DNA from: Bacteroidota bacterium
Lineage (GTDB): Bacteria > Bacteroidota > Rhodothermia > Rhodothermales > Rubricoccaceae
Length of the DNA: 50,089 bases
Assembly (NCBI GenBank): GCA_039821555.1
Contig: JBCBNX010000025.1
Location: forward strand, 1 to 50,089
Direction of reading: 5' to 3'
Every line of letters starts with the position of its first letter. Within the stretch, counting starts at the first letter, position 1. The notes below the pieces were generated by a model. That model saw only the letters and a list, made by a program, of their open reading frames with translations, was not told where the DNA came from and made no database searches. This document shows positions 22,985-47,832 of the stretch, piece after piece. A program made the translations under genes and the position numbers.

Positions 22985-23764
22985 TTGTTGCTGAGGTCAG
23001 ATAGTCTACCTCATTTTGCTGACGTTGAGGCACTTTCGAGTCTTCGGTACGTTTCGCCTCTTCCATACAGTCGGCTTTTCTCCATGCCTCCCTTTGACCT
23101 ATACGGCGGCCGCGACCCTCGGCACATCCCGCTTTACGCGCAGCGGGAGGCCGCTCACATCGTAGGCGTATCACACTCTACGCTTCGAAGCTGGGTGCAG
23201 GAGCAGACCGACTCCGAAGGCATGATGCCTCCGCTAATTCGTCGACCCGATGAAGCAGACTCGCGTCTCTCGTTCAGCAACCTTGTCGAAGCGTTCGTGC
23301 TCCGAGCGCTTCGTGAGCGCTACCGTGTTCCCATGAAGGCCATCCGTCAGGCGGTAGCCTACGCAGAGGCTGAGTTGGACGTAAAGCACCTCCTGCTCCG
23401 CCGAGAGTTGCGTGTGTCCGGAGATCTGTTCTGGGATCGGCTGGGGCAGCTCATTAACCTGTCGCAGTCTGGCCAGTTGGCCATTCGACACGTTCTCGAA
23501 AGCTATCTCGAACGTATTGAATGGGACGAACAGACCAACCTGCCGACTCGCTTCTTTCCGCTACCAGACGCAGGCGTTGCTACGAAGTCAGTGGTAGTTG
23601 ACCCCCGCGTTGCCTTTGGACATCCAACGCTGTCCGGGACGGGCATTAGTACTGAGGTGGTTAAACGCCGGATCGATATCGGGGAGACCGTAGAGGAGTT
23701 AGCTGAGGACTACCAGGTCTCGATCAAACAGGTCAAAGACGCGCTCCTCTACGAGAGGCCGTAG
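22985..23764 (+). CDS. HTH + DUF433 domain protein (antitoxin-like). The true start may be the internal Met at about 23084.
   Basis: The C-terminal ~60 aa (VVVDPRVAFGHPTLSGTGISTEVVKRRIDIGETVEELAEDYQVSIKQVKDALLYE) fit DUF433. The N-terminal part has an HTH-like REAAHIVGVSHSTLRSWVQ. The gene has lower GC than its neighbours. Confidence 0.55.
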   Translation: MLLRSDSLPHFADVEALSSLRYVSPLPYSRLFSMPPFDLYGGRDPRHIPLYAQREAAHIVGVSHSTLRSWVQEQTDSEGMMPPLIRRPDEADSRLSFSNLVEAFVLRALRERYRVPMKAIRQAVAYAEAELDVKHLLLRRELRVSGDLFWDRLGQLINLSQSGQLAIRHVLESYLERIEWDEQTNLPTRFFPLPDAGVATKSVVVDPRVAFGHPTLSGTGISTEVVKRRIDIGETVEELAEDYQVSIKQVKDALLYERP

Positions 23765-23765
23765 G

Positions 23766-24182
23766 GTGAGCGATACTGAGCCGACCTTTTTCATTGATCG
23801 ATGCCTTGGTGCGCGCTTTCCCAGCATGCTCGAAGCTGCAGGCATTCGCGTAGTGCGTCATCGCGACCACTTCGTAGACACAGCTCCCGACGAGGAGTGG
23901 TTAGCGTGGGTAGCAGAGCATGGCTATGTGGCTCTCTCCAACGATCGCAACGTGTACCGTCGGCCTGCACAACGCGAGGCAGTACTTCGGGCCAGGCTTG
24001 CGTATTTCGTGCTGAGCGCCAACGCAAAGACGGACGAATTAGCTCGCGCGTTTATTGACTCCTATCCGAAGGTGAAGCAGCTTCTCATTGAGCACCAACT
24101 CCCGTTCATCGCTAGCATTCAGCGGCCTAGCGCTCCTGGTAGGTCAGGTCGCATCCGCTTACTCTATCCAAAGGAGGGCTGA
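23766..24182 (+). CDS. DUF5615-like (Mut7-C/PIN-like) protein, putative toxin partner of the DUF433 protein
   Basis: FFIDRCLGARFPSMLEAAGIRVVRHRDHFVDTAPDEEWLAWVAEHGYVALSNDRNV matches the DUF5615 pattern (FLxDENL...L...G..V......g....D.ei...A...g.vlvT.D.dF). It starts 2 nt after the DUF433 gene. Confidence 0.5.
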   Translation: MSDTEPTFFIDRCLGARFPSMLEAAGIRVVRHRDHFVDTAPDEEWLAWVAEHGYVALSNDRNVYRRPAQREAVLRARLAYFVLSANAKTDELARAFIDSYPKVKQLLIEHQLPFIASIQRPSAPGRSGRIRLLYPKEG

Positions 24183-26410: not shown

Positions 26411-26572
26411 GAGAGGAGTGGGTTGGGCTGATTGAAAAGCGTGATGGCCCGTTGAAACATGTATCGGAACGAATGTTCCAGAATGGAGCAGGAGAAAATC
26501 TGAGCGGTTACGGAGGCAGCCCGGAGCTACGGCATTTTGACTGGACATACCACACCCAGCGCTGCACCTTTT

Positions 26573-26629
26573 CGACCCTCGACCCTCGACCCTCGACCCT
26601 CGACCCTCGACCCTCGACCCTCGACCCCT
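26573..26629. repeat. heptanucleotide tandem repeat (CGACCCT)x7 plus one imperfect unit; (GGGTCGA)n on the minus (coding) strand
   Basis: Read directly: CGACCCTCGACCCTCGACCCT... through 26629. It begins immediately after, and overlaps, the TGA of the TetR gene. It lies about 165 nt upstream of the SDR start. Confidence 0.9.
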
Positions 26630-30615: not shown

Positions 30616-31263
30616 CTAGCGGGGGCGCTGACCGTTGGCCTTGCGAATGACGCGCGTATTAGAAGCCCGGCTACGCGGTGCACTGTCGCCCTGAGAGCCA
30701 TTGCTCGGGGCGCTACCGCGCTGCGAACCGTCCCCGTGCACACCACCGAACGGGTCTGCTGGGGGGCGCTCGTTGTGGGGGCCCTGGCGCGTCGTGCGCT
30801 GGGGCTCGGGGAGGTACTTCGCCGGGACCCGTGGGGGAGATGCGAACCGCCCGCGCTCGTCGAGCGCCACCCACTGCGCTGGCATCGAATAGAGGTAGCG
30901 GCCGATGCCCCACTGCACGGCGGCCCGCTTGAGCGCGCCGGATAGGCCACCCTTGACCGATTCGAACTCGGTGTTCTCGGCGCCGTCCCACTTGGTCACC
31001 CACTCTGGCGCGTTAGCTCCCTCGCGGTGCACGAGAATGGAGAGGCCGCACAGGACGCCCCCCTCGGGCCCCGGTGCGAATTCGTTCCGCCAGTTGCCTG
31101 GCCCGCACACCTCGTCCAGGCGGTCCTGGATGGCGCGACTCGTGAGGTAGGCCATCGCTAGACCTTTTTTGCGGTCACGCGTGGTCGCCCCGGGCTTCCA
31201 CTCAATGTCGTCGTTGGGAAAGGGGGCGCTGAGGCGGCGGAGATCGTCTGGAGAGACAGCCAT
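30616..31263 (-). CDS. Rad52/Rad22-family single-strand annealing protein (DdrA/Sak-like)
   Basis: ATG at 31263 gives MAVSPDDLRRLSAPFPNDDIEWKPGATTRDRKKGLAMAYLTSRAIQDRLDEVCGPGNWRNEF, which matches the conserved Rad52 N-terminal annealing domain. The C-terminal tail is Gly/Ser/Arg-rich and looks disordered. Confidence 0.7.
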   Translation of the reverse strand: MAVSPDDLRRLSAPFPNDDIEWKPGATTRDRKKGLAMAYLTSRAIQDRLDEVCGPGNWRNEFAPGPEGGVLCGLSILVHREGANAPEWVTKWDGAENTEFESVKGGLSGALKRAAVQWGIGRYLYSMPAQWVALDERGRFASPPRVPAKYLPEPQRTTRQGPHNERPPADPFGGVHGDGSQRGSAPSNGSQGDSAPRSRASNTRVIRKANGQRPR

Positions 31264-31579
31264 AGGACAAGCTGGGCACGTCGATGGAACAGGTACTCCA
31301 CCAAGGATCGCCCCATTGAGTGACACCACTCTGTCACTCAATGGGGCGTGCTCCTGTAGGCTCGTGTAATGTGAAGAAACGTTGGGGATGTTCAGTTTTT
31401 CGACGGGAAAATCGAAGAAGAAAGCGCTTTTTATTTAGATCCTGATGTTGCTCGCATAAATGAGGTGAAACGATATGGCTCAATGCCTTGAATTCCTAAG
31501 GGTGGCCTCCTATGTTTTATCCCGTCGCACCTGGTGCGATTGGTCTTCTAGCGTTCACCGGCGGTTCCGCCGGTGCGCC

Positions 31580-36190: not shown

Positions 36191-36835
36191 ATGCTGGAGT
36201 TTCTATCCTCGGGCCCGCTGCTGCCCCTCACGGTCCTCCTCGCCATCGTCGGGGTCTACTGGCTGTTCGTCATCCTGGGCGCGCTCGACCTCGACTTCCT
36301 CGACGTGGACTTCGACGCGACGGACGCGGACGTGGACCTCGACTTCGAAGTCGATGCGGATGTGGATACCGGACTCTCGGGGTGGCAGCAGGCGCTGTCG
36401 TTCCTGCACCTCGGCATCGTGCCGTTCATGGTCGTCTTCAGCGTGTTCGTGCTGAGCTGGTGGACGGCCGCCGCCATCGGGTTCTTCGTGCTCGGCCTCG
36501 GTGCGCTCGTCGGGCTAGGCGGCAGCGCTTTGCTGGCCATCCTCGCGACGAAGGTGCTCACATGGCCGCTCGCGGTCCTCTTCCGCAAGCTCAAAGCCGC
36601 AGAGGCTCCGGTGCAGATTATCGGGCGCGTCTGCACGGCGCTCACCGCCATCGACCACGAGCGGCTCGGGCAGGCCGAGCTCGCCACCGACGGCGCGCCG
36701 CTGCTGCTCACCGTCAAGACCACCCAGCCCGGCGAGCGGGTCGCGCGCGGAGAACGCGCCCTCGTGGTCGCCCGCAGCGACGACGGGCAGGTCTACCTCG
36801 TAGATCCCGTCGCCGTCCAGCAGGCCACGGTCTGA
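36191..36835 (+). CDS. NfeD/YqiJ-like membrane protein (flotillin-associated, C-terminal OB-fold)
   Basis: N-terminal TM helix, an unusual acidic D-rich segment (LDLDFLDVDFDATDADVDLDFEVDADVD) and two more TM helices. A C-terminal beta-rich OB-like domain (IGRVCTALTAIDHERLGQAELATDGAPLLLTVKT...ALVVARSDDGQVYLVDPV) follows. It sits immediately upstream of the flotillin gene, as in yqiJ-yqiK and nfeD-floT pairs. Confidence 0.6.
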   Translation: MLEFLSSGPLLPLTVLLAIVGVYWLFVILGALDLDFLDVDFDATDADVDLDFEVDADVDTGLSGWQQALSFLHLGIVPFMVVFSVFVLSWWTAAAIGFFVLGLGALVGLGGSALLAILATKVLTWPLAVLFRKLKAAEAPVQIIGRVCTALTAIDHERLGQAELATDGAPLLLTVKTTQPGERVARGERALVVARSDDGQVYLVDPVAVQQATV

Positions 36836-36838
36836 TCC

Positions 36839-39058
36839 TTGCGGCTCGCTGCCGCCCTCCAGTTTCAACGTTTTTCTGGCCCCACCCTCTCTGTCATGGA
36901 AGCATTCTATAACATCGCCGCGGTCGTTGTCGGCTTTGTCGCGCTTATATCCCTTGGGCTAATTGCCCTGGTCGCCAAGTTTTACAAAAAGGTCGAGCAA
37001 GGCCGTGCCCTCGTGCGCACCGGTGTCGGCGGCACGAAGGTCGCCTTCTCGGGGATGTACGTCTTCCCGGTGGTCCACCGCTCCGAGCTGATGGACATCT
37101 CGCTCAAGCGCGTCGAGATCTCGCGCACGGGCAAGAACGGCCTCATCTGCAAGGACAACATGCGCGCCGACATCCAGGTGGCCTTCTTCGTGAAGGTCAA
37201 CAAGGACGAGCAGAGCGTGCAGACCGTCGCCGAGTCCATTGGCACCGTGCGTGCCTCGGACCCGCAGGCGCTCATCGAGCTGTTCGACGCCAAGTTCTCG
37301 GAGGCGCTCAAGACGGTCGGCAAGAACTACGACTTCGTCGACCTCTACAACAGCCGCGAGACGTTCAAGGAGGACATCCTCAACGTGATCGGCACTGACC
37401 TGAGCGGCTACGCGCTCGAAGACGCGGCCATCGACTACCTGGAGCAGACGCCCGTCGAGACGCTCGACCCGGACAACATCCTCGACGCGGAGGGCATCAA
37501 GAAAATCACCGACCTGACGGCGCGGCAGGCCGTGCTCGCCAACGAGATCAACCGCGAGAAGGAGAAGACGCTCAAGAAGCAGGACGTGGAGGCCCGCGAG
37601 GCCATCCTCGAACTGGAACGCCAGCTTGCGGAAAAAGAGGCGAGCCAGCGCCGTGAAGTCGAGACCGTACAGGCGCGCGAGACTGCCGAGACGGAGCGCG
37701 TACGCCAGGAGGAGCGCCTCAAAGCTGAGCGCGCCCGCATCCAGACCGACGAGGAGGTCGAGGTTGCCGAGCAGAACAAGCAGCGGCAGGTGCTCGTCGC
37801 GGAGAAGAACCGCCTGCGCACTGATGCCGTCGAGACGGAGCGCGTGGAGAAGGACCGCCAGCTCGAAGCCACCGAGCGCGAGCGCGTGGTCGAGCTCGCC
37901 CGCATCGAGAAGGAGAAGGCGCTCGAAGAGGAGCGCAAGACGATCCAGACCGTGATCCGCGAGCGCGTGATGGTCGAGAAGTCGGTCGTCGAGGAGGAGG
38001 AAAAGATCAAGGACACCCGCGCCACCGCCGAGGCCGAGCGCACGAAGTCGGTCGCGCTGACGTATGCCGAGCAGCTCGCCGAAGAGGCGAAGGTGCAGGA
38101 GACGAAAGCCGCCGAGGCGAAGCGCCTCGCCGCCGTCGAGGCCGCGCAGCAGCGCGTCGTCGAGGCCGAGGCTGAGCAGGAGGCCGCCGAGAAGGAGGCC
38201 GCCGCTATGAAGACGCTCGCCGCCGCGCGCGCCGAGGAGGAAGCCACCGTGGGCCTCTCGGAGGTCCGCGTGATGGAGGCCCGCGCCGCCGCCGTCCGCG
38301 AGGAGGGCACCGCCGAGGCCGACGTGCTCAAGCTGAAAGCCAGCGCCGAGGCGGAGGCCATCCAGGCCAAAGCGCTCGCCGAGGCCGAGGGCAAGAAGGC
38401 CCTCGCCGATGCTACGGAGGCGCAGGGCTCCGCCGAAGCGGAGGTCATGAGCCGGAAGTACGCCGCCGAAGCCGACGGCATCCGCCAGAAGGCCGAGTCG
38501 ATGAAGGTGCTCGACGGCGTCGGCAAGGAGCACGAGGAGTTCAAGCTCCGCCTGGAGAAGGACAAGGAGGTCGAGCTGGCGCAGATCGCCGTCCAGAAGG
38601 ACATCGCGCTGGCGCAGGCCGAGGTGCTCCGCGCCGGCCTCGAAGCGGCCAACATCGACATCGTCGGTGGGGAGTCGATGTTCTTCGAGAAGATCGTCGG
38701 GGCGATCACGCAAGGCCGGTCGGTGGACCGCCTCGTGGACGGCTCGGACGTGCTCAGCGAGGTCAAGGAGGCGTTCCTCTACGGCGAGGGCGCGCTCGGC
38801 GGCGGTGCGCTCGGCGACGGCGCCGACGGCGGTGTCCCGATGCTGGGCGACGGGCTCATCGCCCGCGTGCGCGGCCTCGTGGCGCAGACTGGCCTGGGCA
38901 CGGACGACGTGAAGAACCTCACGCTCTCGGCGCTACTCGTGAAGCTGATGGCGCAGACCGAGGACGCCGCCGACGCGACGGCGCTAGAGCAGATGCTCCG
39001 CACCGTGCGCCAGCTCGGTCTCGGCGACCAGAAGGCCAGCACGCTCGGGCTGAAGTAG
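36839..39058 (+). CDS. flotillin-like SPFH/band-7 protein with a very long coiled-coil region (YqiK/FloT-like)
   Basis: N-terminal TM anchor plus SPFH domain (ALVRTGVGGTKVAFSGMYVFPVVHRSELMDISLKRVEISRTGKNGLICKDNMRADIQVAFFVKV). About 400 aa of E/A/R/K-rich heptad-like coiled coil follows. 739 aa. Confidence 0.85.
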   Translation: MRLAAALQFQRFSGPTLSVMEAFYNIAAVVVGFVALISLGLIALVAKFYKKVEQGRALVRTGVGGTKVAFSGMYVFPVVHRSELMDISLKRVEISRTGKNGLICKDNMRADIQVAFFVKVNKDEQSVQTVAESIGTVRASDPQALIELFDAKFSEALKTVGKNYDFVDLYNSRETFKEDILNVIGTDLSGYALEDAAIDYLEQTPVETLDPDNILDAEGIKKITDLTARQAVLANEINREKEKTLKKQDVEAREAILELERQLAEKEASQRREVETVQARETAETERVRQEERLKAERARIQTDEEVEVAEQNKQRQVLVAEKNRLRTDAVETERVEKDRQLEATERERVVELARIEKEKALEEERKTIQTVIRERVMVEKSVVEEEEKIKDTRATAEAERTKSVALTYAEQLAEEAKVQETKAAEAKRLAAVEAAQQRVVEAEAEQEAAEKEAAAMKTLAAARAEEEATVGLSEVRVMEARAAAVREEGTAEADVLKLKASAEAEAIQAKALAEAEGKKALADATEAQGSAEAEVMSRKYAAEADGIRQKAESMKVLDGVGKEHEEFKLRLEKDKEVELAQIAVQKDIALAQAEVLRAGLEAANIDIVGGESMFFEKIVGAITQGRSVDRLVDGSDVLSEVKEAFLYGEGALGGGALGDGADGGVPMLGDGLIARVRGLVAQTGLGTDDVKNLTLSALLVKLMAQTEDAADATALEQMLRTVRQLGLGDQKASTLGLK

Positions 39059-39120
39059 CCGCCGAGCCGCAGCGTGCTCGGACGGCTCCCCCCGCTTGAC
39101 GCGCCTCGACGGCGGTCAAG

Positions 39121-39148
39121 CTGTCCCCCTCACCCGTGAGGGGGACAG
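39121..39148 (+). terminator. perfect 12-bp GC-rich hairpin between the flotillin gene and the giant ATPase gene (candidate attenuator or partial terminator)
   Basis: CTGTCCCCCTCA-CCCG-TGAGGGGGACAG. The downstream U-tract is weak (TTCGAAG). Confidence 0.3.
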
Positions 39149-39285
39149 TTCGAAGAGCGAAGCGTCGTCAGACGCGGAGGCGATGAGAACGGGGGGAGCC
39201 GAGCAGCGCTGGGTGCTCGAACTAGTCCAGAGCGTCTTGCTGCCGCCAGCCTTAGCCCATCTCCAACACTCCGTCCCATCCCCGT

Positions 39286-42200
39286 ATGGAACCGGCTCGC
39301 CCCTCCGCTCCCGACCTCGCGCCCGTCGCTGGCAACGACGTGCCGCCCAGCGGCGCGTCCGGCGACGGCGCCCCGGCTGGCACTGCGCCGAACGCGACGC
39401 CTGCGCTCGAAGGCGGCACGTACGAGTTGCTCCGCGACCGCCTCGCACAGCACGCCCGTACGCTCCAGACGCGCCTCCAGACGCTCGACGAGGCCCGCCG
39501 CGCCGTCTTCGGCAGCACCGACCTCGCGCTGATCGGCACGGCCGCGATCGCCACGCACCACAACGCCGTCGTGCGCGACCTCGTGGAGGTGCCCGGCCCC
39601 GACGGCCCGCGCCTGCTCGTCGGCTGCCACGTGCACCTCGGTCTGAAAACCGAGACGACGCTCGACGACGTGTTCGCGGCGTATGCCTTCGACGGCGACA
39701 CGGCGACCTACCGCGAGGCCCCGCTCGACGTGCTCGCCGACGAGCGCTTCGCGGAGGACTTCGCCAACCTCCATCGCTACTACAAGCAGGCGCGCTTTGC
39801 CCGCTTCGCCGAGCGCGGGCCGCACCTCTTCATGGTCTTCCAAGTCGGACAGCGCGCGGACGACATCAAGGTCTTCAAGTGGCTGCGCGGCGACGACGGG
39901 CTGCAGTACCTCGACAACCGCTCCGAGCACACCTTCGTCTACCCGACGCAGCAGGCCTTCCGCTGGCAGCGCACCACGCGCGACATGCACCGCGACGGCG
40001 CGCACCCGCACGTCTCCATCGAGGACCGCGTCTTCGTGGAGGCCGTCGGCGGCGACCTCACGGTGAAGGTGGAGGACAACACCGACAGCGGCCTCGGCGT
40101 CTACGCGGAGCCCGTCGACCACGCCGACCAAACACTCGACGACGCGGAGGTGCACTACGCCACCGCGGGGCCGCTTATCCTGATGCGCATTCGGCCCTAC
40201 CAGGAGGAGACGACGCGGCAGCTACTCTTCAACGAGAAGACGCAGGCCGTTCATCGCCTCGACGCGCTCGCACACGCGACGGTAGCGCTGCCCGAAGACC
40301 ACGGCATCGTCTACCCCGACGGCTTCGCGCTCGCAGCGGGCGGCGTCAAGCGCTTCGACGGCGTCCCGGCCGCCACCCGCTTCGAGCGGCAGATCGCCGC
40401 GCCCAACGGCGAGGACTTCCTCTTCGTTTTCCACGACGTCCAGACGGGCGAGTACGTCCTGCTGTCGTACAACCTCATCACGCAGGAGGTCGCCACGCCG
40501 GTCCGCTGCGGCGGCTACGCGCTGCGCCCCGACGGCGAACTCGTCTACGTGCGCCCCGAGCCCGAGCCGAGCAAGCACCACACGCTCCAGCGCTGGCGCT
40601 CGCCCTACCGCAGCCGCAACGGCGCCCCTCTTGCTGGCGAGGCACCCAGACAACAGGACGCGTACCTCTTCAAGGTGGGCAACAAGGACATCGTCCGCGC
40701 GCTCAGCGAGGGCTACGCGATCCTCAACCTCCTCGGCCGCGACGACGGCTACGTGGGCCTCTACGCCGACCTCGTCAAGGAGACGACGGGTCTGCTCGAC
40801 GCGACGTTCTGGCTCGACCACGAGGAGGCGGGCAACGTGGCCGAGGTGCTGCGCGGCATTCGCGAGACGGCGCAGCGAGCCCTCGCCGAGTTCGACAAGG
40901 TGCGCCGCCTCCGCCAGACGGCTCGGGAGCGCACGCAGGCCGCTGCGGCCGAGACGCAAGCGCTCCTCCAAACCGTCGAGCGGCGGACGTTCGAGTCAGT
41001 AGAGCAGTTTGTCGATGCGCTCGCAGAATTAAGAGCGGTGCGCGGGCGGCTGATCGCCCTGCGCGAGGTGCGCTACGCCGACGTGGCGCTCGCCGAGGCG
41101 CTCGAAACCGAGGCCGCCGAGGCGTCGGAGCGGCTGGCCCGCCGCATGGTCGAGTTCCTCCTCCGCGACGACGCCCTCGCGCCGTACGAGGCGCAGGTCG
41201 CCGAGGCCGCCGCGGCCATCGACGCGCTCGACACCGTCGCTGAGGCGCGCGGTGTGGCTGAGCGGTTCGACACCGCCGCCAGCGCGCTCGACCTGCTCAT
41301 CGAAACCGTCTCGAACCTCCAGATCGACGACGCGACGCAGACGACGCGCATCATCGACGCGGTCTCCGGGCTCTACGCGACGCTCAACGCCGAGCGCGCC
41401 CGCCTGAAGCGCCGCCGCGACCAGCTTGCCGAGACCGAGGGCGCGGCCGAGTTCGCCGCGCAGCTCAAGCTCCTCGAACAGGCCGTCACGAGCTACCTCG
41501 ACGTGGCCGAGACGCCCGAGGCGTGCGAGCAATACCTCACCCGCGCGATGGTGCAGGTGTCGGAATTGGAGAGCCGCTTCGCCGAGGCCGACCGCTTCAT
41601 CGAAGTGCTGTCCGAGCGCCGCGAGGAGGTCTACGCCGCGTTCGAGCAGAAGCGGCTCGCGCTCGTGGAGGCGCGCAGCCAGCGCACCGCCGCGCTCGAA
41701 CGCGCCGCCGAGCGCATCCTCGACGGCGTCCGCAGCCGCCTCGACCGCTTCGACACGGTCGAGGAGATCAACGGCTACCTCGCCGCCGACCTCATGGTGG
41801 CGAAGGTCCGCGACACCGTAGCCCAGCTCCGCGACCTCGGCGACGCGACCAAGGCCGACGGCCTCCAGACGGCGCTCAAGGCCGCACGCGAGCAAGCGAT
41901 CCGCCAGCTCAAGGACCGGAAAGAGCTGTTCGTCGACGGCCAGCCGATCCTGCGCCTCGGCACGCACCGCTTCGCCGTCAACACGCAGCCGCTCGACCTC
42001 ACAACGGTCCTCCGCGACGAGCGCCTCCACCTGCACCTCACTGGCACCGGCTTCTTCGAGCCGCTCGACGACCCCGCCATTGAGGCCGCGCGTTACCTCT
42101 GGACGCAGGAAGTCGTCTCCGAGACGGACGACGTCTACCGCGCGGAGTACCTCGCCTACCTCGTCTACCAGGCATCGCTCGTCGGGCAGTCGGAGATCCC

Positions 42201-44430
42201 GCCGCCCACGGCGCTACTCGCTGAGCCAGAGGACGACGAAGCACCTGATGCCGTGCTCGCCTCTGTACAGCGGTTCATGGCTCCGCGCTACGGCGAGGGC
42301 TACGTCAAGGGTGTGCACGACCACGACGCCGCGACGATCCTCCGCGCGCTGCTACGCCTCCACGCCGATGCCGGGCTGCTGCGCTATGGCCCCGCCGCCC
42401 GTGCTTGCGCGCTCGTCTGGTGGCACTGCTTCGCCGACGACGCGACGCGGACCCGCTTCGAGGCGCGGCTGCGCGGCCTCGGCACCGTCCAGCGGCTGTT
42501 TTCGAATGGCGAACACGATCTCGATGCCGCCACCGCCGCTCTCGCCATACCGCTCGTGGCGTTCGTCAACGACACCGGACTGTTCGAGGTCAGCATCGCG
42601 GAGCAAGCTGCGGCCTACCTCGCCCGCGAACTCGCGCAGGACGACCCGACCCGCTTCGTCGCCAGCCCCGAGGCTGTGACGTTGCTCGACGGCTTCGCCA
42701 AGGCGCTCGCCAAGCCAAAGGCAACGAAGGCGTTTGGCGACGCACTCGACCGTCTTATTGATGATCCTGCCGGCCAGGTCGCGCTCCTCCGCGATGCCCT
42801 TTCCACCTTTGCGAACCAGCAACACACGGCCTCAACGTTGAAAAGGAGTTCCCCTCCTGGACAGAGTCTTGCCCCCGCGCAGGCGGGGGAGGGGACAGGG
42901 GTGGTGGATCGAGCCGGGCATAAACCCGACAGGACTGACTCCGACCTCGTCGACGAAGCCGCCGCGATTCGCCTGGCCGATCTCCGCGAGAACGTGGATG
43001 TAGGCGCGACCGAGACGCGTGTCGAGTTGGCCGACCTGCGCGGGAGCCATGCGCGCGTGGACGATGGCACGTACCGCCTCGACTTCGCGGCCTTCCTCGA
43101 CCGGCTCGGCGCGTTCGCCAGGGAGCGCGTGCCCGCGTTCGCTGCGTTTGCCGCGCGCAAGCATGAGCGCATCCAGGCGCGGAAGGCCGAACTGCGCCTC
43201 GACGAACTCAAGCCGCGCGTCTTCTCGGGCTTCGTCCGCAACCGCCTCATCGACCGCGTCTTCCTCCCGCTCATCGGCGACAACCTCGCCAAGCAGCTCG
43301 GCACGGCGGGCGATACGACGCGCACGGACCGGCAAGGTCTGCTGCTGCTGATCTCGCCGCCGGGCTACGGCAAGACGACGCTCATGGAGTACCTCGCCGA
43401 CCGGCTGGGGCTCACGTTCGTCAAGATCAACGGCCCGGCCATCGGCCACGACGTGACGGCGCTCGACCCGGAGTCTGCACCCAACGCCGCCGCGCGCGAG
43501 GAGCTCGTCAAGCTCAACCTCGCCTTTGAGATTGGCGACAACCTGATGCTGTACGTCGACGACATCCAGCACTGCCACCCGGAGTTCTTGCAGAAGTTCA
43601 TCGCGCTCTGCGACGCCCAGCGGCGCGTCGAGGGCGTGTGGCGCGGGCAGCCGCGCACCTACGACCTGCGCGGCAAGAAGGTGGCCGTGGTGATGGCGGG
43701 CAACCCCTACACCGAGAGCGGCGCCCGCTTCCGCGTCCCGGATATGCTCGCCAACCGCGCCGACACCTATAACCTCGGCGACGTGATCGGCGAGACGGCG
43801 GACGCCTTCGCCAGCTCCTACCTCGAAAACGCGATGGGCGCCAACCCCGTCCTCGACGCCGTGGCGAGCCGCGCGCCCGACGACCTCCACGCGCTCGTCC
43901 AGGCTGCCGAGACCGACCGCCGCGACGGACTCGACCTCCAGGGCAACTATGCCCCCGACGAACTCGACGAGATCCTCGCCGTGCTGCGCCACCTGATCGC
44001 GCTGCGCGACGTGGTGCTGGGCGTCAACCAGGAGTACATCGCCAGCGCCGCGCAGAACGATGCCTACCGTACGCGCCCACCGTTCCTGCTCCAGGGCTCC
44101 TACCGCAACATGAACCGGCTCGCCGAGAAGGTCCTGCCCGCCATGACCGACGCCGAGCGCGACACGCTCGTGCGCAGCCACTACGAGCAGGAGGCGCAGC
44201 TTCTCACGAGCGGGGCCGAAGCCAACCTGCTGCGGCTCAAGGAACTGATGGGCTGGCTCACGCCCGACGAGGCCGCCCGCTGGGCCGAGATGCAGGCGAC
44301 GTTCCAGAAGAACCAGGCGTTCGCGGGCCTCGCCGACGGCGACCAAGTGGCGCAGGTGCTCGCGCAGCTTGCCGCCCTCACCGACGGCCTCGCCGCCATC
44401 CGCGATGTGCTGGCGCGCGGTGACGACTAG
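39286..44430 (+). CDS. giant (1714 aa) multidomain protein with a C-terminal MoxR/AAA_5-like AAA+ ATPase domain; function unknown
   Basis: Continuous ORF; ATG at 39286. Near residues 1340-1500: Walker A LLLISPPGYGKTTLMEYLADRLG, Walker B LMLYVDDIQHCHPEFLQKFIALCDAQRRV (MoxR-like DEINRA...-type), then VAVVMAGNPYTES. The central ~800 aa are strongly alpha-helical and A/L/E/R-rich. The N-terminal ~450 aa are of unknown fold. Confidence 0.8.
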   Translation: MEPARPSAPDLAPVAGNDVPPSGASGDGAPAGTAPNATPALEGGTYELLRDRLAQHARTLQTRLQTLDEARRAVFGSTDLALIGTAAIATHHNAVVRDLVEVPGPDGPRLLVGCHVHLGLKTETTLDDVFAAYAFDGDTATYREAPLDVLADERFAEDFANLHRYYKQARFARFAERGPHLFMVFQVGQRADDIKVFKWLRGDDGLQYLDNRSEHTFVYPTQQAFRWQRTTRDMHRDGAHPHVSIEDRVFVEAVGGDLTVKVEDNTDSGLGVYAEPVDHADQTLDDAEVHYATAGPLILMRIRPYQEETTRQLLFNEKTQAVHRLDALAHATVALPEDHGIVYPDGFALAAGGVKRFDGVPAATRFERQIAAPNGEDFLFVFHDVQTGEYVLLSYNLITQEVATPVRCGGYALRPDGELVYVRPEPEPSKHHTLQRWRSPYRSRNGAPLAGEAPRQQDAYLFKVGNKDIVRALSEGYAILNLLGRDDGYVGLYADLVKETTGLLDATFWLDHEEAGNVAEVLRGIRETAQRALAEFDKVRRLRQTARERTQAAAAETQALLQTVERRTFESVEQFVDALAELRAVRGRLIALREVRYADVALAEALETEAAEASERLARRMVEFLLRDDALAPYEAQVAEAAAAIDALDTVAEARGVAERFDTAASALDLLIETVSNLQIDDATQTTRIIDAVSGLYATLNAERARLKRRRDQLAETEGAAEFAAQLKLLEQAVTSYLDVAETPEACEQYLTRAMVQVSELESRFAEADRFIEVLSERREEVYAAFEQKRLALVEARSQRTAALERAAERILDGVRSRLDRFDTVEEINGYLAADLMVAKVRDTVAQLRDLGDATKADGLQTALKAAREQAIRQLKDRKELFVDGQPILRLGTHRFAVNTQPLDLTTVLRDERLHLHLTGTGFFEPLDDPAIEAARYLWTQEVVSETDDVYRAEYLAYLVYQASLVGQSEIPPPTALLAEPEDDEAPDAVLASVQRFMAPRYGEGYVKGVHDHDAATILRALLRLHADAGLLRYGPAARACALVWWHCFADDATRTRFEARLRGLGTVQRLFSNGEHDLDAATAALAIPLVAFVNDTGLFEVSIAEQAAAYLARELAQDDPTRFVASPEAVTLLDGFAKALAKPKATKAFGDALDRLIDDPAGQVALLRDALSTFANQQHTASTLKRSSPPGQSLAPAQAGEGTGVVDRAGHKPDRTDSDLVDEAAAIRLADLRENVDVGATETRVELADLRGSHARVDDGTYRLDFAAFLDRLGAFARERVPAFAAFAARKHERIQARKAELRLDELKPRVFSGFVRNRLIDRVFLPLIGDNLAKQLGTAGDTTRTDRQGLLLLISPPGYGKTTLMEYLADRLGLTFVKINGPAIGHDVTALDPESAPNAAAREELVKLNLAFEIGDNLMLYVDDIQHCHPEFLQKFIALCDAQRRVEGVWRGQPRTYDLRGKKVAVVMAGNPYTESGARFRVPDMLANRADTYNLGDVIGETADAFASSYLENAMGANPVLDAVASRAPDDLHALVQAAETDRRDGLDLQGNYAPDELDEILAVLRHLIALRDVVLGVNQEYIASAAQNDAYRTRPPFLLQGSYRNMNRLAEKVLPAMTDAERDTLVRSHYEQEAQLLTSGAEANLLRLKELMGWLTPDEAARWAEMQATFQKNQAFAGLADGDQVAQVLAQLAALTDGLAAIRDVLARGDD

Positions 44431-44437
44431 CGCACTC

Positions 44438-44929
44438 ATGGCGAAGACGCTTAACCAGATTGAAGGGCGCGGGCCTCAGCCTATGCCACCCGAGGTGAAG
44501 GGCCTGATAGCCAACGCTGAGCGGCTGATGGGCACACCTATCGATCAGTTTAGCGTGGGCGACCTGCGGCTCATGATCGGGCAGAACATGGGCACAGAAC
44601 ACCTGATGCCCAGAGCGCTCGGTGTGCTCGAATTGAATCCCCTCGTGTGCGGGACGTTCTTCCCTGGCGATCTGCTGAAGGCAACGTTCCGGCTCCCAGC
44701 AGTGTACTGGACGCAGCATCCGGCGCACCATGAGCGTGCGCTCGCCATCGCCCGCCAAGCACTAGACATCCTCGAAGCTCGCTGCGCCCGCTCGAAAGCG
44801 CGCTTCTATAAGCGGTACGGTACGCACCTCAACGAAGAGGAATGTTTGGATATCGACGAGCGTGACGTTAAGCAGTGGTGTCTGGATTTTCTCGCGAGCT
44901 ACGATGGGAGCGGCGTGGCAACCCGCTGA
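44438..44929 (+). CDS. small conserved-looking hypothetical protein, translationally coupled to the giant ATPase gene
   Basis: ATG at 44438, 8 nt after the TAG of the giant gene. 163 aa, MAKTLNQIEGRGPQPMPPEVKGLIANAERLMGTPIDQFSVGDLRLMIGQNMGTEHLMPRALGVLELNPLVCGTFFPGDLLKATF... I recognise no family. Confidence 0.6.
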   Translation: MAKTLNQIEGRGPQPMPPEVKGLIANAERLMGTPIDQFSVGDLRLMIGQNMGTEHLMPRALGVLELNPLVCGTFFPGDLLKATFRLPAVYWTQHPAHHERALAIARQALDILEARCARSKARFYKRYGTHLNEEECLDIDERDVKQWCLDFLASYDGSGVATR

Positions 44930-44951
44930 CCGCTCTTGCGTTTAGGCGAGC
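44930..44951. repeat. direct repeat, copy 1 (GCTCTTGCGTTTAGGCGAGC), left flank of the hicBA cassette
   Basis: Exact 20-nt match to 45504-45523. The extended imperfect match is GGCAACC(N8)GCTCTTGCGTTTAGGCGAGC. Confidence 0.75.
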
Positions 44952-44972
44952 ACATTCTAGCCCTACGACTGC

Positions 44973-45203
44973 ATGTCCAGACTCATCAAGATCATCGTCG
45001 AGAAGCACTCAGATGGGTACGTTGCCTACCCAGTTGGGTTGAAGGGCGTCGTCGTGGGACAGGGCGATAGCTATGAGGAGGCGCTTGCGGATGCGCGGAG
45101 TGCGGTGGCGTTCCACATCGAAACGTTCGGGCCGGAGGTGCTCGATAGCGATGACGGTCCCGTCTTGGAGGTGTTCGTAGCTGAAGCGACCGTAGCCGCC
45201 TGA
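44973..45203 (+). CDS. hicB: HicB-family antitoxin
   Basis: 76 aa, MSRLIKIIVEKHSDGYVAYPVGLKGVVVGQGDSYEEALADARSAVAFHIETFG. This is the HicB/UPF0150 RNase-H-like fold pattern. Confidence 0.8.
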   Translation: MSRLIKIIVEKHSDGYVAYPVGLKGVVVGQGDSYEEALADARSAVAFHIETFGPEVLDSDDGPVLEVFVAEATVAA

Positions 45204-45448
45204 TGTCGGAGCGCTTTCCCCGGGATGCCCCGCTGCGTCGCGTACTGGCGTCGCTCGAAGCGCTCGGCTTCCGGATCGTGCGCGAAGGCAACCACATCGC
45301 GATGCTGCATGAGGATGAGGACGGCACCCGGACGCCGCTGACGCTCCCCAACCATCGCACGATCAAAGGTTCTACCTTGCGCGCCATCCTCCGGCAAAGT
45401 GGCATTGGGCGGGACGAGTTTTTGAAGGTCTACCGCCGCGCCAAGTAG
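45203..45448 (+). CDS. hicA: HicA-family mRNA interferase toxin
   Basis: 81 aa, LRRVLASLEALGFRIVREGNHIAMLHEDEDGTRTPLTLPNHRTIKGSTLRAILRQSGI (YcfA/HicA dsRBD-like). The start overlaps the hicB stop (TGATG). Confidence 0.8.
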   Translation: MSERFPRDAPLRRVLASLEALGFRIVREGNHIAMLHEDEDGTRTPLTLPNHRTIKGSTLRAILRQSGIGRDEFLKVYRRAK

Positions 45449-45501
45449 CACGCCTCTGTGCGCCCAGACTGGATAGCACTTTCCACCGGGCAACCGACGG
45501 A

Positions 45502-45523
45502 CGGCTCTTGCGTTTAGGCGAGC
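45502..45523. repeat. direct repeat, copy 2, right flank of the hicBA cassette, about 20 nt upstream of the relA/spoT start
   Basis: GGCTCTTGCGTTTAGGCGAGC; see copy 1. Confidence 0.75.
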
Positions 45524-45543
45524 CCGTTGCACCAGGTCCCGCT

Positions 45544-47832
45544 ATGATCCAGGCCTCCGCCCACCTCGACGCGCAGCTTCGCGAACTCAAAGTCGACGCG
45601 AAGTACCGGCGCGGGCTGCGGGTACTGATCGAGCACGCCCGGCGGCGGCTGCCGAGCGTGGACGAGCAGCTGCTCCGCCGCGCCTTCCAGGTGGCCTACT
45701 GGGCGCACCGAAACGACCGCCGCGCCGACGGCTCGCTCTACATCGCGCACCCGCTCGAAGTCGCCACCATCGCCGCGCGGGACATCGCCTTCGACGACGT
45801 GACCGTGGTCGCCGCGCTGCTGCACGACACCGTCGAGGACACCGACATCTCGCTCGACTTCTTGGAGGCTGAGTTTGGAGCCGAGCTCGCGCAGGTCGTG
45901 GACGGCGTCACCAAGATCGACCACGTCTTCGAGAGCAAAAAGCTAGGCCGCGACGAGAACGTGCGCAAGCTCATGCTCTCGATGGCGAGCGACATCCGTG
46001 TCATCCTGGTGAAGTTCGCCGACCGGCTGCACAACATGCGGACGCTAGAGAGCCTCCCGCAGGCGAAGCAACTCCGCATCGCTTCGGACACGCTCGCGCT
46101 CTTTGCGCCGTTGTCGCACCGCTTCGGCCTCAACGCCATCAAGACGGAGTTGGAGGACCTCTGCCTGAAATACATCGACCCGGAGCGCTACCAGCACATC
46201 ACGACGGGGCTGAAGGCCAACCGGCGGCAGCGCGAGACGTACCTCCGCCGCTTCATCGAGCCCGTCCAGAAGGAGCTCGAAGGCGCGGGTCTGACGTTCG
46301 AGATCACCGGGCGCCCGAAGTCGATCTACTCGATCTACCGGAAGATGAAGGCGCAGGATAAAGACCTCGACGAGATCTACGACCTGCTCGCCATTCGCAT
46401 CATCCTGGAGAGCGAAGGCCGCCAGGGCCGCGAGGATTGCTGGCGCGTCTACTCGATCCTCACGGACCTCTACCCGCCCATTCCCGAGCGCTTCCGCGAC
46501 TTTATCTCGCTGCCGAAGTCGAACGGCTACCAGAGCCTCCACACGACCGTCATCGGGCCGAAGGGGCGGCGCATCGAGATCCAGGTGCGCACGCAGGAGA
46601 TGCACGAGATCGCCGAGCGCGGCGTGGCGGCGCACTGGAAGTACAAGGAGAAGAACGCCGACGGCTCCCGGAACAGCCCGCGCGCCGACGAGCGCCTCGA
46701 CTCGCTCTACTCGTGGGTGCGCGACATGCTCGAAAACCCGCAGCCCGACGCGGCGAGCGACTTCGTGCAGGAGTTCTCGCTCAACCTCTACGCCGAGGAG
46801 ATCTACGTCTTCACGCCCGCTGGCGACCTGCTCACGCTCCCGCGCGGCGCTACGCCCGTCGACTTCGCCTACCAGGTGCACACCGAGGTCGGCAACCGCT
46901 GCATCGGCGCTAAGGTCAACGGCAAGATGGTCCCGCTTTCGCACAAGCTGGCCTCCGGCGACCAGGTTGAGATCCTCACGTCGAAGAAGCAGTCGCCCAA
47001 CCCAGACTGGGCGAACTTCGTGGTCACGACGAAGGCGAAGGCCCGCATCCGGCAGCACATCAACGAGAAGCGCCGCAAGGCCGTCGACCAGGGCCGCGCC
47101 GTGTTTGAGAAGCGCCTCGCGAAGGCGGGCGTCGAGATCGACCAGCAGGCCATCGCGCGCACAGCGGCGAAGCTGAAGTTTCCCGACTCGCAGCAGGTCT
47201 TCTACGAGATCGGCACCGGCGCGTACGACGCCGACACGTTTATCACAGCGCTGCGCCGCGGTGCCGAGGCAGCCCGGGTCGAAACCGAACAGGCTAACGC
47301 CGAGACCGCCGAGGCGCAGGCGCGCTACCTCGACCAGGAGGCCACGCGCGTCACGCGCCAGGCCCGCGAGGCCAACCTCCCCGCGCTCATCGTCGACGGC
47401 GAGCCGATGTCGGACCTCGCCACGCGCTACGCCAACTGCTGCAACCCGATCCCCGGCGACGAGGTGGTCGGGTTCGCGAGCAAGACGGGCGCCATCACGA
47501 TCCACCGCGGCACGTGCCGCAACGCGCTCCACCTGATGGCCGAGCAGCCCGAGCGCATCCTGCCCGTGGACTGGAGCCGCCAAAAGGATGCGCAGTTCAT
47601 CGTCGGCCTGCGCATCATCGGCGAGGACCGCGTCGGCATCGTGAGCGACCTCACCACGATGATCTCGAAGAACCAGCGCACCAACATCCGCTCGATCACG
47701 GTCGAGAGCGAGGACGGCATGTTCGAGGGCAACCTCGTGCTCTTCGTGAGCGACCTCAAGCACCTGCAGCGGCTGATGGACCGCATGCGACAGATCGACG
47801 GCATCTTCGGCGTCTATCGGTTTGAAGAGTAG
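45544..47832 (+). CDS. spoT: bifunctional (p)ppGpp synthetase/hydrolase, RelA/SpoT family
   Basis: HD hydrolase domain (HPLEVATIAARDIAFDDVTVVAALLHDTVEDT), synthetase domain (RPKSIYSIYRKM...DLLAIRIIL...GYQSLHTTV), then TGS and C-terminal ACT. Start at MIQASAHLD. Confidence 0.9.
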   Translation: MIQASAHLDAQLRELKVDAKYRRGLRVLIEHARRRLPSVDEQLLRRAFQVAYWAHRNDRRADGSLYIAHPLEVATIAARDIAFDDVTVVAALLHDTVEDTDISLDFLEAEFGAELAQVVDGVTKIDHVFESKKLGRDENVRKLMLSMASDIRVILVKFADRLHNMRTLESLPQAKQLRIASDTLALFAPLSHRFGLNAIKTELEDLCLKYIDPERYQHITTGLKANRRQRETYLRRFIEPVQKELEGAGLTFEITGRPKSIYSIYRKMKAQDKDLDEIYDLLAIRIILESEGRQGREDCWRVYSILTDLYPPIPERFRDFISLPKSNGYQSLHTTVIGPKGRRIEIQVRTQEMHEIAERGVAAHWKYKEKNADGSRNSPRADERLDSLYSWVRDMLENPQPDAASDFVQEFSLNLYAEEIYVFTPAGDLLTLPRGATPVDFAYQVHTEVGNRCIGAKVNGKMVPLSHKLASGDQVEILTSKKQSPNPDWANFVVTTKAKARIRQHINEKRRKAVDQGRAVFEKRLAKAGVEIDQQAIARTAAKLKFPDSQQVFYEIGTGAYDADTFITALRRGAEAARVETEQANAETAEAQARYLDQEATRVTRQAREANLPALIVDGEPMSDLATRYANCCNPIPGDEVVGFASKTGAITIHRGTCRNALHLMAEQPERILPVDWSRQKDAQFIVGLRIIGEDRVGIVSDLTTMISKNQRTNIRSITVESEDGMFEGNLVLFVSDLKHLQRLMDRMRQIDGIFGVYRFEE

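What the first reader, a model, noticed from the sequence alone, without database searches (positions are those of the whole stretch)
44930..45523. hicBA toxin-antitoxin cassette bracketed by a perfect 20-bp direct repeat, inserted between the flotillin-ATPase locus and relA/spoT
GCTCTTGCGTTTAGGCGAGC occurs at 44932-44951 and again at 45504-45523. With extended imperfect identity, GGCAACC-N8-GCTCTTGCGTTTAGGCGAGC, the match is about 35 nt. The first copy starts right after the stop of the 163-aa ORF. The second lies just before the relA/spoT start codon. The ~550 bp between the copies holds exactly hicB-hicA. This looks like a site-specific or duplicative insertion of a TA cassette. Removing the cassette plus one repeat copy would restore a plausible ancestral junction. 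Flanking repeats of this length are unusual for simple TA genes. They may mark an unrecognised small mobile cassette type or integron-like capture.
Basis: seen in the sequence. Interest (0 to 1): 0.6.

Follow-up and report, generated by a model that had tools for sequence, protein, structure and literature searches.

The report
HicBA cassette between duplicated relA leaders
A small toxin-antitoxin gene pair sits just upstream of the stress-alarm gene relA, bracketed by two copies of a 36-38-base piece of relA's own upstream leader; close relatives carry a single copy and no cassette, so the gain/loss polymorphism is real, but nothing found here points to a new kind of mobile element.

Summary
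GCTCTTGCGTTTAGGCGAGC occurs exactly twice in the window, at 44932-44951 and 45504-45523. It is the core of a 36-38-nt unit, R (44917-44953 and 45489-45525), which brackets hicB-hicA. Relatives (RelA 96-99% identical) give at least eight arrangements of the DUF3686-relA junction. One R always lies about 20 nt before the relA ATG. A second R occurs only where hicBA is present. L019, L092, L099, L100 and L101 are empty sites with one R. The interval is a small low-GC variable islet of single immunity-like genes (CdiI_3, SUKH, DUF1877, an unassigned ORF) plus hicBA. The 20-mer was found nowhere else: not in the metagenome collection, the viral contigs, or about 297 kb of related DNA. The window has no integrase or transposase, and R is not attC-like. 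Related hicBA pairs elsewhere lack flanking repeats. The 20-mer is invariant while cassettes differ by 8-12%, and the relA leader aligns with that of distant relatives. Best reading: R is native relA leader DNA, duplicated so that hicB and relA each carry a copy. Presence and absence arise from recombination between R copies or between the conserved flanks. A trans-acting site-specific system is not excluded. Interest is moderate to low.

The parts
39286..44430 (+). DUF3686/DUF7902/AAA ATPase gene (1714 aa). It is the conserved left flank of the variable islet, which begins right after its stop codon.
   Evidence: Pfam PF12458 E=1e-167. 91-94% nt identity to L019/L020 up to the stop codon.
44438..44929 (+). 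CdiI_3-family immunity-like gene (163 aa, 'long' allele). Its last four codons and its stop codon lie inside repeat copy R1.
   Evidence: PF18616 E=7e-20. Alleles of 71-84% identity occur in relatives. GC3 is 0.73 against about 0.9 in the flanks.
44917..44953 (+). R1, the left copy of the 36-38-nt repeat unit (G-GCAACCCGCTGACC-20mer-AC).
   Evidence: CM hit 49.1 bits.
44932..44951 (+). Invariant 20-mer core, copy 1. It ends 21 nt before the hicB ATG.
44973..45203 (+). hicB-like antitoxin gene (76 aa, short form without a DNA-binding domain). Its stop overlaps the hicA start (TGATG).
   Evidence: More than 8000 homologues, which NCBI/JGI name HicB family. Pfam match is only weak (PF15919, E=0.025). 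PDB 2yzt, E=0.21.
45203..45448 (+). hicA toxin gene (81 aa).
   Evidence: PF07927 E=4.3e-13, above the gathering score.
45489..45525 (+). R2, the right copy of the repeat unit (G-GCAACCGACGGACG-20mer-CC). It is orthologous to the single copy in the empty-site relatives.
   Evidence: CM hit 57 bits.
45504..45523 (+). Invariant 20-mer core, copy 2. It ends 20 nt before the relA ATG.
   Evidence: Zero changes across the five relA-proximal haplotypes scored, against 4.7 expected.
45544..47832 (+). Bifunctional RelA/SpoT (762 aa), the conserved right flank.
   Evidence: TIGR00691 E=7e-204. Pfam HD_4, RelA_SpoT, TGS, ACT.

Best explanation
The interval between the DUF3686 ATPase stop codon and relA is a small hypervariable islet. 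It holds one to three unidirectional accessory genes: orphan immunity-like CdiI_3, SUKH/SMI1_KNR4, DUF1877, an unassigned ORF, and hicBA. R (36-38 nt, with the invariant 20-mer at its core) is native relA upstream leader DNA and marks the conserved right edge of the islet. In one old event hicBA came to lie between two copies of R, so hicB and relA each have the same element 20-21 nt before their ATG. I infer that the 20-mer is a cis-acting expression signal (promoter, operator or 5'-leader element) kept by selection at both genes; losing antitoxin expression or relA expression would be harmful. Presence and absence of the cassette among strains would then arise in two ways: homologous recombination in the conserved flanks, which replaces the whole islet, and recombination between the two R copies, which gives precise loss or Campbell-type re-insertion of an R+hicBA circle. 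No element-encoded recombinase is needed. Shown: the anatomy, the empty sites, the uniqueness of R, the conservation pattern, and the absence of a local recombinase. Inferred: the regulatory role of the 20-mer, the direction of the events and the recombination pathway.
For: (1) One R lies before relA in every haplotype: window, L019, L020, L092, L095, L099, L100, L101. A second R appears only with hicBA: window, L020/L093, L095. (2) The empty-site breakpoints coincide with R: window 45488 corresponds to L019 2409. (3) The 20-mer shows 0 changes in five relA-proximal haplotypes. The relA third-position rate predicts 4.7 changes (P about 0.01). There is 1 change in three hicB-proximal copies, although the cassettes differ by 8-12%. 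The adjacent 14 nt of R do vary and keep R1-specific (GACAGAC) and R2-specific (GACGGRC) variants, so wholesale gene conversion is unlikely. (4) The 42-nt relA leader, including the 20-mer, aligns with the relA leaders of Rubricoccaceae MAGs L025, L027 and L029 (RelA about 66% identical, no islet). It does so better than 491-500 of 500 shuffles, so R2 is native. (5) The spacing to the ATG is the same at both genes, 21 and 20 nt. (6) R is unique to this locus: metagenome scan 2 hits, both this locus; viral 0; covariance-model search of 297 kb finds nothing else at E<=10. (7) The window has no integrase or transposase. (8) A second cassette of the same islet (ORF-Y in L019/L092) is bracketed by a different direct repeat, a duplicated DUF3686 3' end of about 45-70 nt. 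This points to a homology-based or sequence-independent process, not one specific att site. (9) The islet has low GC (0.55-0.62 against 0.69-0.71) and lower GC3.
Against: No promoter, terminator or stable hairpin could be shown in R. The sigma-70 and terminator scans found 0 sites. The 20-mer hairpin is only -5.7 kcal/mol, z -1.15. No Bacteroidota-type -7 box (TAnnTTTG) is visible by eye in R or the leaders; no scan for it was run. At least six different left-hand contexts join R at the same nucleotide (G|GCAAC). Random illegitimate events explain this less easily than a site-specific process, unless the ancestral spacer between the DUF3686 stop and R was only a few nt. A 36-nt homology is near the lower limit for RecA-type recombination. 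How the duplication first arose is not explained. Whole genomes could not be scanned, so 'unique to this locus' rests on 50 kb plus related loci and on collection scans.
Confidence: 0.5

Rival explanations
1. R is the attachment site of a trans-acting site-specific recombination system (IMEX/dif-like, attI-like, or rAID/integron-like). That system inserts and excises small cassettes immediately to the left of R, and hicBA is a cassette that kept a good second site.
For: At least six or seven unrelated left contexts abut R at exactly the same base, both at the relA copy and at the hicB copy. They are CdiI_3 reading into R, the hicA flank, the MITE/DUF1877 flank, ORF-Z, DUF1877, SUKH stop + 3 nt, and the L099 context. 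R is a discrete unit with sharp edges. In R2-type contexts it reads as an imperfect palindrome, ACGGCTCTTGC-GTTTAG-GCGAGCCCGT, with roughly the 11-6-10 geometry of tyrosine-recombinase core sites (read directly from the sequences). The cargo is typical of captured arrays: orphan immunity genes and a TA pair, one orientation, tightly packed, low GC.
Against: No recombinase gene lies in the 50-kb window or next to the islet in any haplotype. Junctions between the other cassettes lack R (CM search). The ORF-Y cassette is bracketed by a different repeat, the DUF3686 3' end. R has no RYYYAAC/GTTRRRY pair, and 36-38 nt is well below attC length (attC architecture cited from own knowledge). R has no resemblance to the known dif consensus (own knowledge). 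GC skew does not switch at R. The cassette is old and stable.
Confidence: 0.2
2. The repeats are a long target-site duplication. A single staggered-cut or end-joining insertion of a 516-537-bp foreign fragment produced them, they have no function of their own, and their identity reflects recency or chance.
For: The structure is a direct duplication of target sequence around an insert of lower GC. The cassette ends show no terminal inverted repeats (read).
Against: The cassettes of window, L020 and L095 are 8-12% diverged, yet the 20-mer is unchanged in five of six copies while the neighbouring repeat bases have diverged. The repeats are therefore neither recent nor neutral. To my knowledge, target duplications of 36-38 bp are not produced by known transposases.
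Confidence: 0.1
3. The 20-mer acts at the RNA level as a 3'-end or processing hairpin that insulates neighbouring cassettes, not as a 5' expression signal. It was duplicated because it travels with the upstream gene.
For: It forms a 5-bp stem with a 6-nt loop. In the window and L019 it follows the CdiI_3 stop codon directly.
Against: The fold is not better than shuffles (z -1.15) and has no U-tract, and the terminator scan found 0 sites. R stays with relA whatever gene lies upstream. The leader similarity to relatives that lack the islet ties it to relA.
Confidence: 0.1

Closest known systems
Type II HicAB toxin-antitoxin modules
   Same: The HicA toxin domain scores above the Pfam threshold. 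A small HicB-family partner overlaps it by one base. The family is widespread and highly conserved, with 75-89% identical HicB proteins in several phyla.
   Different: The gene order is hicB then hicA. HicB is a 76-aa short form with no recognisable DNA-binding domain, so autoregulation by HicB binding an operator is doubtful. The operon sits behind a copy of a host gene's leader.
Integron gene cassettes (TA cassettes are common in chromosomal super-integrons; own knowledge)
   Same: Small promoter-poor cassettes in one orientation, a TA pair as cargo, repeats at the cassette borders, and presence/absence polymorphism with a single-site empty state.
   Different: There is no IntI. The repeat is 36-38 nt without attC architecture or a stable fold. 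Only one cassette carries it, and the site lies in front of a housekeeping gene.
IMEX elements and dif/pdif modules that use host XerC/D (own knowledge)
   Same: No element-encoded recombinase. Direct repeats of a unique chromosomal site flank small inserts. Variable DNA accumulates on one side of the site. TA genes are frequent cargo of pdif modules.
   Different: R does not resemble dif sequences. There is no sign of a replication terminus. The other cassettes lack any second site.
rAID-1 orphan-immunity arrays of Bacteroidales (Ross et al., bioRxiv 10.1101/471110)
   Same: The phylum is Bacteroidota in the broad sense. There are arrays of orphan immunity-family genes (CdiI_3, SUKH, DUF1877), skewed GC and repeated intergenic sequence.
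   Different: The defining XerD-like recombinase is absent. The islet has only 1-3 genes, and the repeat is limited to the hicBA borders.
Integrative elements that duplicate the 3' end of their target gene (tRNA genes; icd for e14/phage 21; own knowledge), and recombination hot spots between core genes
   Same: The direct repeats are copies of local target sequence. In the window and L019 the upstream copy completes the CdiI_3 reading frame. ORF-Y is likewise bracketed by a duplicated DUF3686 3' end. The islet lies between two conserved core genes with sharp borders.
   Different: The inserts are one or two genes with no integrase, and different cassettes use different repeats.

Membership tests
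HicAB type II toxin-antitoxin | HicA toxin domain (PF07927) | tested here: met
   E=4.3e-13, 49.6 bits against a cut-off of 27.
HicAB type II toxin-antitoxin | Adjacent HicB-family antitoxin | tested here: inconclusive
   No Pfam or NCBIfam hit above threshold (PF15919 E=0.025). However, cluster neighbours are named HicB family by NCBI and JGI, there is a weak PDB hit to TTHA1756, and the gene overlaps hicA.
HicAB type II toxin-antitoxin | Toxicity of HicA and its neutralisation by HicB | not testable with these tools
   Needs expression experiments.
Integron cassette array | IntI tyrosine recombinase next to the array | tested here: not met
   No Phage_integrase-type hit among the window ORFs. 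The neighbours in all haplotypes are DUF3686 and relA.
Integron cassette array | attC site (about 55-140 nt, R''/L''-L'/R' imperfect palindrome with RYYYAAC...GTTRRRY) at the 3' end of every cassette | tested here: not met
   R is 36-38 nt. There is no conserved RYYYAAC/GTTRRRY pair. The fold is not better than shuffles. Other cassette junctions lack R. No attC covariance model was available.
IMEX / dif module | Site resembles the 28-bp dif (11-6-11) and lies at the replication terminus | tested here: inconclusive
   In some contexts R has an imperfect 11-6-10 palindrome, but no similarity to the dif consensus (own knowledge). GC skew does not switch at R, though the skew in the window follows gene strand.
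IMEX / dif module | Recombination by host XerC/D | not testable with these tools
   The whole genome is not available.
rAID-1 (recombinase-associated acquired interbacterial defence) | Conserved XerD-family recombinase at one end | tested here: not met
   Absent in the window and in all haplotypes. Feature list taken from 10.1101/471110.
rAID-1 (recombinase-associated acquired interbacterial defence) | Array of orphan immunity-family genes with skewed GC | tested here: met
   CdiI_3, DUF1877, SMI1_KNR4/SUKH. GC 0.55-0.62 against 0.69-0.71. No toxin gene lies adjacent.
rAID-1 (recombinase-associated acquired interbacterial defence) | Repetitive intergenic sequence between all cassettes | tested here: not met
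   R occurs only before hicB and relA.
Transposon / IS / MITE | Terminal inverted repeats, a short target duplication, a transposase | tested here: not met
   The cassette ends are unrelated. The duplication is 36-38 nt. There is no transposase. A true MITE with 13-bp TIRs sits next to R in L020 and L092 and looks quite different.
Genome-wide repeat (REP-like) or common promoter motif | Many dispersed copies | tested here: not met
   Two copies in 50 kb, both here. There are 2 metagenome contigs, both from this locus, and 0 viral contigs. The CM search of 297 kb found no further hits. A complete genome was not scanned.

The most novel reading that the evidence does not exclude
R is a dedicated capture site. 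A recombinase encoded elsewhere in these uncultured Rhodothermales-like bacteria would insert single immunity and toxin-antitoxin genes precisely at the left edge of a 36-38-nt site in front of relA. That would make a recombinase-remote, integron-like acquisition locus wired to the stringent-response gene.
Probability: 0.15. Interest if true: 0.65.

Novelty: new variant of a known kind. Interest (0 to 1): 0.35.

Why it matters
If the best reading holds, this is a tidy natural example of two things. First, a toxin-antitoxin pair can settle in front of an essential regulator by duplicating that gene's leader, so that neither gene loses its expression signal. Second, a tiny intergenic hot spot between two core genes can turn over orphan immunity genes without any local mobile-element machinery. 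It also places a HicA mRNA-interferase operon 95 nt upstream of, and co-oriented with, relA/spoT, which invites a test of transcriptional coupling between a TA module and (p)ppGpp metabolism. If the rival site-specific reading holds, it would add a new kind of cassette-capture site. Either way the effect is local to one uncultured lineage and the components are known, so the general impact is modest.

Tried and rejected
1. Genome-wide motif: rejected.
2. Integrase or transposase nearby: none found.
3. Sigma-70 promoter or intrinsic terminator in R: none found.
4. Stable hairpin: not better than shuffles.
5. R copies at every cassette junction (array model): rejected by the CM search.
6. Tandem 'R-left-like' remnants upstream of each R: not significant, except the SUKH tail in L100 (0.7% of background, 11 tests).
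7. Repeat extending through the whole leader to the ATG: not significant; the best pair was 2% of shuffles among 12 tests.
8. dif/terminus: no skew switch.
9. Other TA pairs of the genome flanked by repeats: the DUF433/PIN_10 pair, the Fic/MazE pair and the DUF433/DUF5615 pair in L014 show none.
10. Related hicBA in other contexts flanked by repeats: none in L096 or L098.
11. Cassette on known plasmids or phages: no nucleotide match.
12. Known defence-system membership of the neighbouring DUF3686 locus or of the islet genes: no PADLOC or NCBIfam hits.
13. My first guess that the organism was Salinibacter ruber was wrong. The records are 'Bacteroidota bacterium' MAGs whose RelA is 58-69% identical to Rubricoccaceae/Rhodothermales MAGs.
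14. A literature search for Rhodothermales promoter consensus found nothing usable.

Full report
OBSERVATION

The 20-mer GCTCTTGCGTTTAGGCGAGC is present at 44932-44951 and 45504-45523. It occurs nowhere else in the window within three mismatches, and none of 100 dinucleotide shuffles gave two matches. The similarity extends leftwards to GGCAACC, giving 40 nt at 85% identity.

- DUF3686/AAA ATPase, 39286-44430.
- A 163-aa ORF, 44438-44929, which is a CdiI_3 immunity-family protein (PF18616, E=7e-20).
- hicB, 44973-45203.
- hicA, 45203-45448 (PF07927, E=4e-13).
- relA/spoT, 45544-47832 (TIGR00691, E=7e-204).

HicB has no family hit above threshold (best PF15919, E=0.025). It belongs to a very large, highly conserved cluster that NCBI and JGI name HicB family. 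The two-copy structure recurs in at least 14 independently assembled contigs.

COMPARATIVE EVIDENCE

The source is an uncultured 'Bacteroidota bacterium' lineage. Its RelA is 58-69% identical to Rubricoccaceae/Rhodothermales MAGs. Relatives with RelA 96-99% identical give at least eight arrangements of the interval between the DUF3686 stop codon and relA:

| Haplotype | Locus | Order between DUF3686 and relA |
|---|---|---|
| H1 | window | CdiI_3 (long), R1, hicBA, R2 |
| H2 | L019 | ORF-Y, CdiI_3 (long), R |
| H3 | L092 | ORF-Y, CdiI_3 (short), MITE, R |
| H4 | L020/L093 | CdiI_3 (short), DUF1877, R1, hicB, truncated hicA, MITE, R2 |
| H5 | L095 | another ORF, R1, hicBA, R2 |
| H6 | L094 | CdiI_3, DUF1877, partial MITE, R (contig ends) |
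| H7 | L100/L101 | SMI1_KNR4/SUKH, R |
| H8 | L099 | unknown left context, R |

Every haplotype therefore has one repeat unit just before relA. A second unit occurs only where hicBA is present. The blastn breakpoints of the empty site coincide with the repeat: window 45488 corresponds to L019 2409.

THE REPEAT UNIT

Aligning eight copies defines R as G-GCAACCGAC[T/G/A]G[A/G]C[N]-20mer-[A/C]C, 36-38 nt, with sharp edges. In the window and L019 the CdiI_3 'long' allele reads into R and uses its TGA. In the other haplotypes the upstream gene has its own stop.

R is unique to this locus in all the data I could reach:
- The exact 20-mer found only two contigs in the metagenome collection, both from this locus.
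- It found none in the viral contigs.
- A sequence-only covariance model found no further copy at E<=10 in 297 kb of window plus related loci.

AGE AND CONSTRAINT

The 537-nt cassette of the window and that of L095 have the same length but differ at 11% of positions (21-35% at third codon positions). relA of the same two genomes differs at 4.5%. Window against L020 differs by 7.9% over the shared 355 nt. The cassette with both repeats is therefore at least as old as the split of these haplotypes, and the 'empty' state of L019 or L092 may be a loss.

Across five relA-proximal haplotypes the 20-mer has no change. The relA third-position rate predicts 4.7 changes (P about 0.01). The three hicB-proximal copies have one change. 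The 14 nt to the left of the 20-mer do vary and keep variants specific to R1 (GACAGAC) and to R2 (GACGGRC). Wholesale gene conversion is therefore unlikely, and selection on the 20-mer at both positions is the simpler reading.

The 42-nt relA leader, including most of the 20-mer, aligns with the relA leaders of Rubricoccaceae MAGs L025, L027 and L029. Those MAGs have no islet and different upstream genes. The alignment is better than 491-500 of 500 shuffles. So the relA-proximal copy is native leader DNA and the hicB-proximal copy is the duplicate. Both 20-mers end 20-21 nt before an ATG.

WHAT IT IS NOT

- No integrase, recombinase or transposase is encoded in the window or next to the islet in any haplotype.
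- R lacks attC length and architecture, and its hairpin is weak (-5.7 kcal/mol, z -1.15).
- No sigma-70 promoter or intrinsic terminator is predicted.
- GC skew does not switch at R.
- Junctions between the other cassettes lack R.
- Related hicBA pairs (HicB 87-89% identical) sit in other housekeeping contexts, such as before rpsO in L096, without flanking repeats.
- Other TA pairs of this genome have no flanking repeats.
- There is no nucleotide match in plasmid or phage collections.

A SECOND CASSETTE WITH A DIFFERENT REPEAT

In L019 and L092, ORF-Y is bracketed by the true 3' end of the DUF3686 gene and a degenerate second copy of its last 45-70 nt, which lies just before CdiI_3. The DUF1877 cassette of L020 may be bracketed in the same way by CdiI_3 3'-end remnants, but that similarity is weak. 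Different cassettes bracketed by duplications of whatever lay upstream argue for a homology-driven or sequence-independent process, not one att site.

BEST EXPLANATION (confidence about 0.5)

The DUF3686-relA spacer is a small hypervariable islet of orphan immunity-like genes and a TA pair. Its GC is 0.55-0.62 against 0.69-0.71 in the flanks.

R is relA's conserved leader and the fixed right border of the islet. In one old event hicBA came to lie between two copies of R, so each operon keeps the element.

Presence and absence arise through homologous replacement of the islet via the conserved flanks, and through R x R recombination.

The regulatory role of the 20-mer, the direction of the events and the pathway are all inferred.

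MAIN RIVAL (about 0.2)

R could be a site for a trans-acting recombinase. The strongest argument is that at least six unrelated left contexts meet R at the same base, at both copies. In some contexts R also reads as an 11-6-10 imperfect palindrome.

Against this stand the absence of any recombinase, the absence of second sites at the other junctions, the different repeat around ORF-Y, and the age of the cassette. The shared junction base could also result if the ancestral spacer between the DUF3686 stop and R was only a few nucleotides.

COMPARISON WITH KNOWN SYSTEMS

The genes are a HicAB module. The HicA domain test is met, HicB is inconclusive by profile, and activity is untested.

The arrangement resembles integron TA cassettes, IMEX/dif modules and the rAID-1 immunity arrays of Bacteroidales (features from 10.1101/471110). 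It fails a defining feature of each: no IntI and no attC; no dif-like sequence or terminus signal; no XerD-like gene and no repeats between all cassettes.

It is closest in logic to integration events that duplicate the target's local sequence, and to recombination hot spots between core genes.

VERDICT

The 'new mobile cassette / integron-like' reading is not supported by any test I could run, but it is not fully excluded. I rate it as a new variant of a known kind, of moderate to low interest (0.35).

Noticed in passing
L019 1271-1312 and 1882-1925; L092 about 170-232 and 795-840: A second cassette of the same islet (ORF-Y, 166-206 aa, no family hit) is bracketed by a direct repeat. The repeat consists of the true 3' end of the DUF3686 gene and a degenerate duplicate of its last 45-70 nt, just before CdiI_3.
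   Followed up: partly
L092 1368-1487; L020 7783-7902; partial copy in L094 about 1230-1315: A MITE-like element of about 120 bp lies just left of R. It has perfect 13-bp terminal inverted repeats (GTCATCCYGAGCG) and, in L092, a 4-bp AGGT target duplication. In L020 it is joined to a hicA truncated after about 35 codons.
   Followed up: partly
window 22985-24182 (+): Another toxin-antitoxin-like pair lies in a lower-GC stretch: an HTH+DUF433 protein (259 aa) followed by a PIN_10/DUF5615 protein (138 aa). It has no flanking direct repeats.
   Followed up: partly
window 30616-31341 (-): A stand-alone Rad52/Rad22-family single-strand-annealing protein (PF04098, E=8e-16). To my knowledge such proteins work with homologies of about 35-50 nt, the size range of the repeats seen in the islet. 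Any link is speculative.
   Followed up: no
window 26572-26627: A perfect tandem array, 8 copies of the 7-nt unit TCGACCC, lies in the spacer between the divergent short-chain dehydrogenase gene (start at 26548, - strand) and the TetR-family regulator gene (end at 26629).
   Followed up: no
window 36191-44430 (+): A conserved three-gene block precedes the islet: a 214-aa YqiJ_N-like membrane protein, a 739-aa protein with no family hit, and the 1714-aa DUF3686/DUF7902/AAA_5 ATPase. It has no PADLOC or NCBIfam match and its function is unknown.
   Followed up: partly
L096 6001-6482: A related hicBA pair (HicB 87% identical) in another Bacteroidota MAG from the same study series lies inside the infB-rbfA-truB-ribF...rpsO-pnp housekeeping cluster, just before rpsO. 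This is again in front of a translation/stress-related gene, but without flanking repeats.
   Followed up: partly
L020 7965-8003: In L020 the stretch between R and the relA ATG is longer. It contains a local duplication, ctGATCCAGGCCgtcctATGATCCAGGCC, which repeats the first codons of relA.
   Followed up: no
L091 (minus-strand reading, contig positions about 770 down to 1): The metagenome contig carrying hicA-R-relA breaks off inside relA into unrelated low-GC sequence that ends in CCCTAA-type telomere-like repeats. It is probably a chimeric assembly.
   Followed up: no
L100 676-690; L101 106-120: The last codons of the SUKH gene (GCAGACCGCTGAC) resemble the left part of R (GCAACCCGCTGAC in window R1) and lie directly next to R. 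This was the only upstream context to pass a background test (0.7%, 11 tests), so it may be chance.
   Followed up: partly
window 1-857: The window begins with the 3' end of a 23S rRNA gene and a 5S rRNA gene.
   Followed up: no
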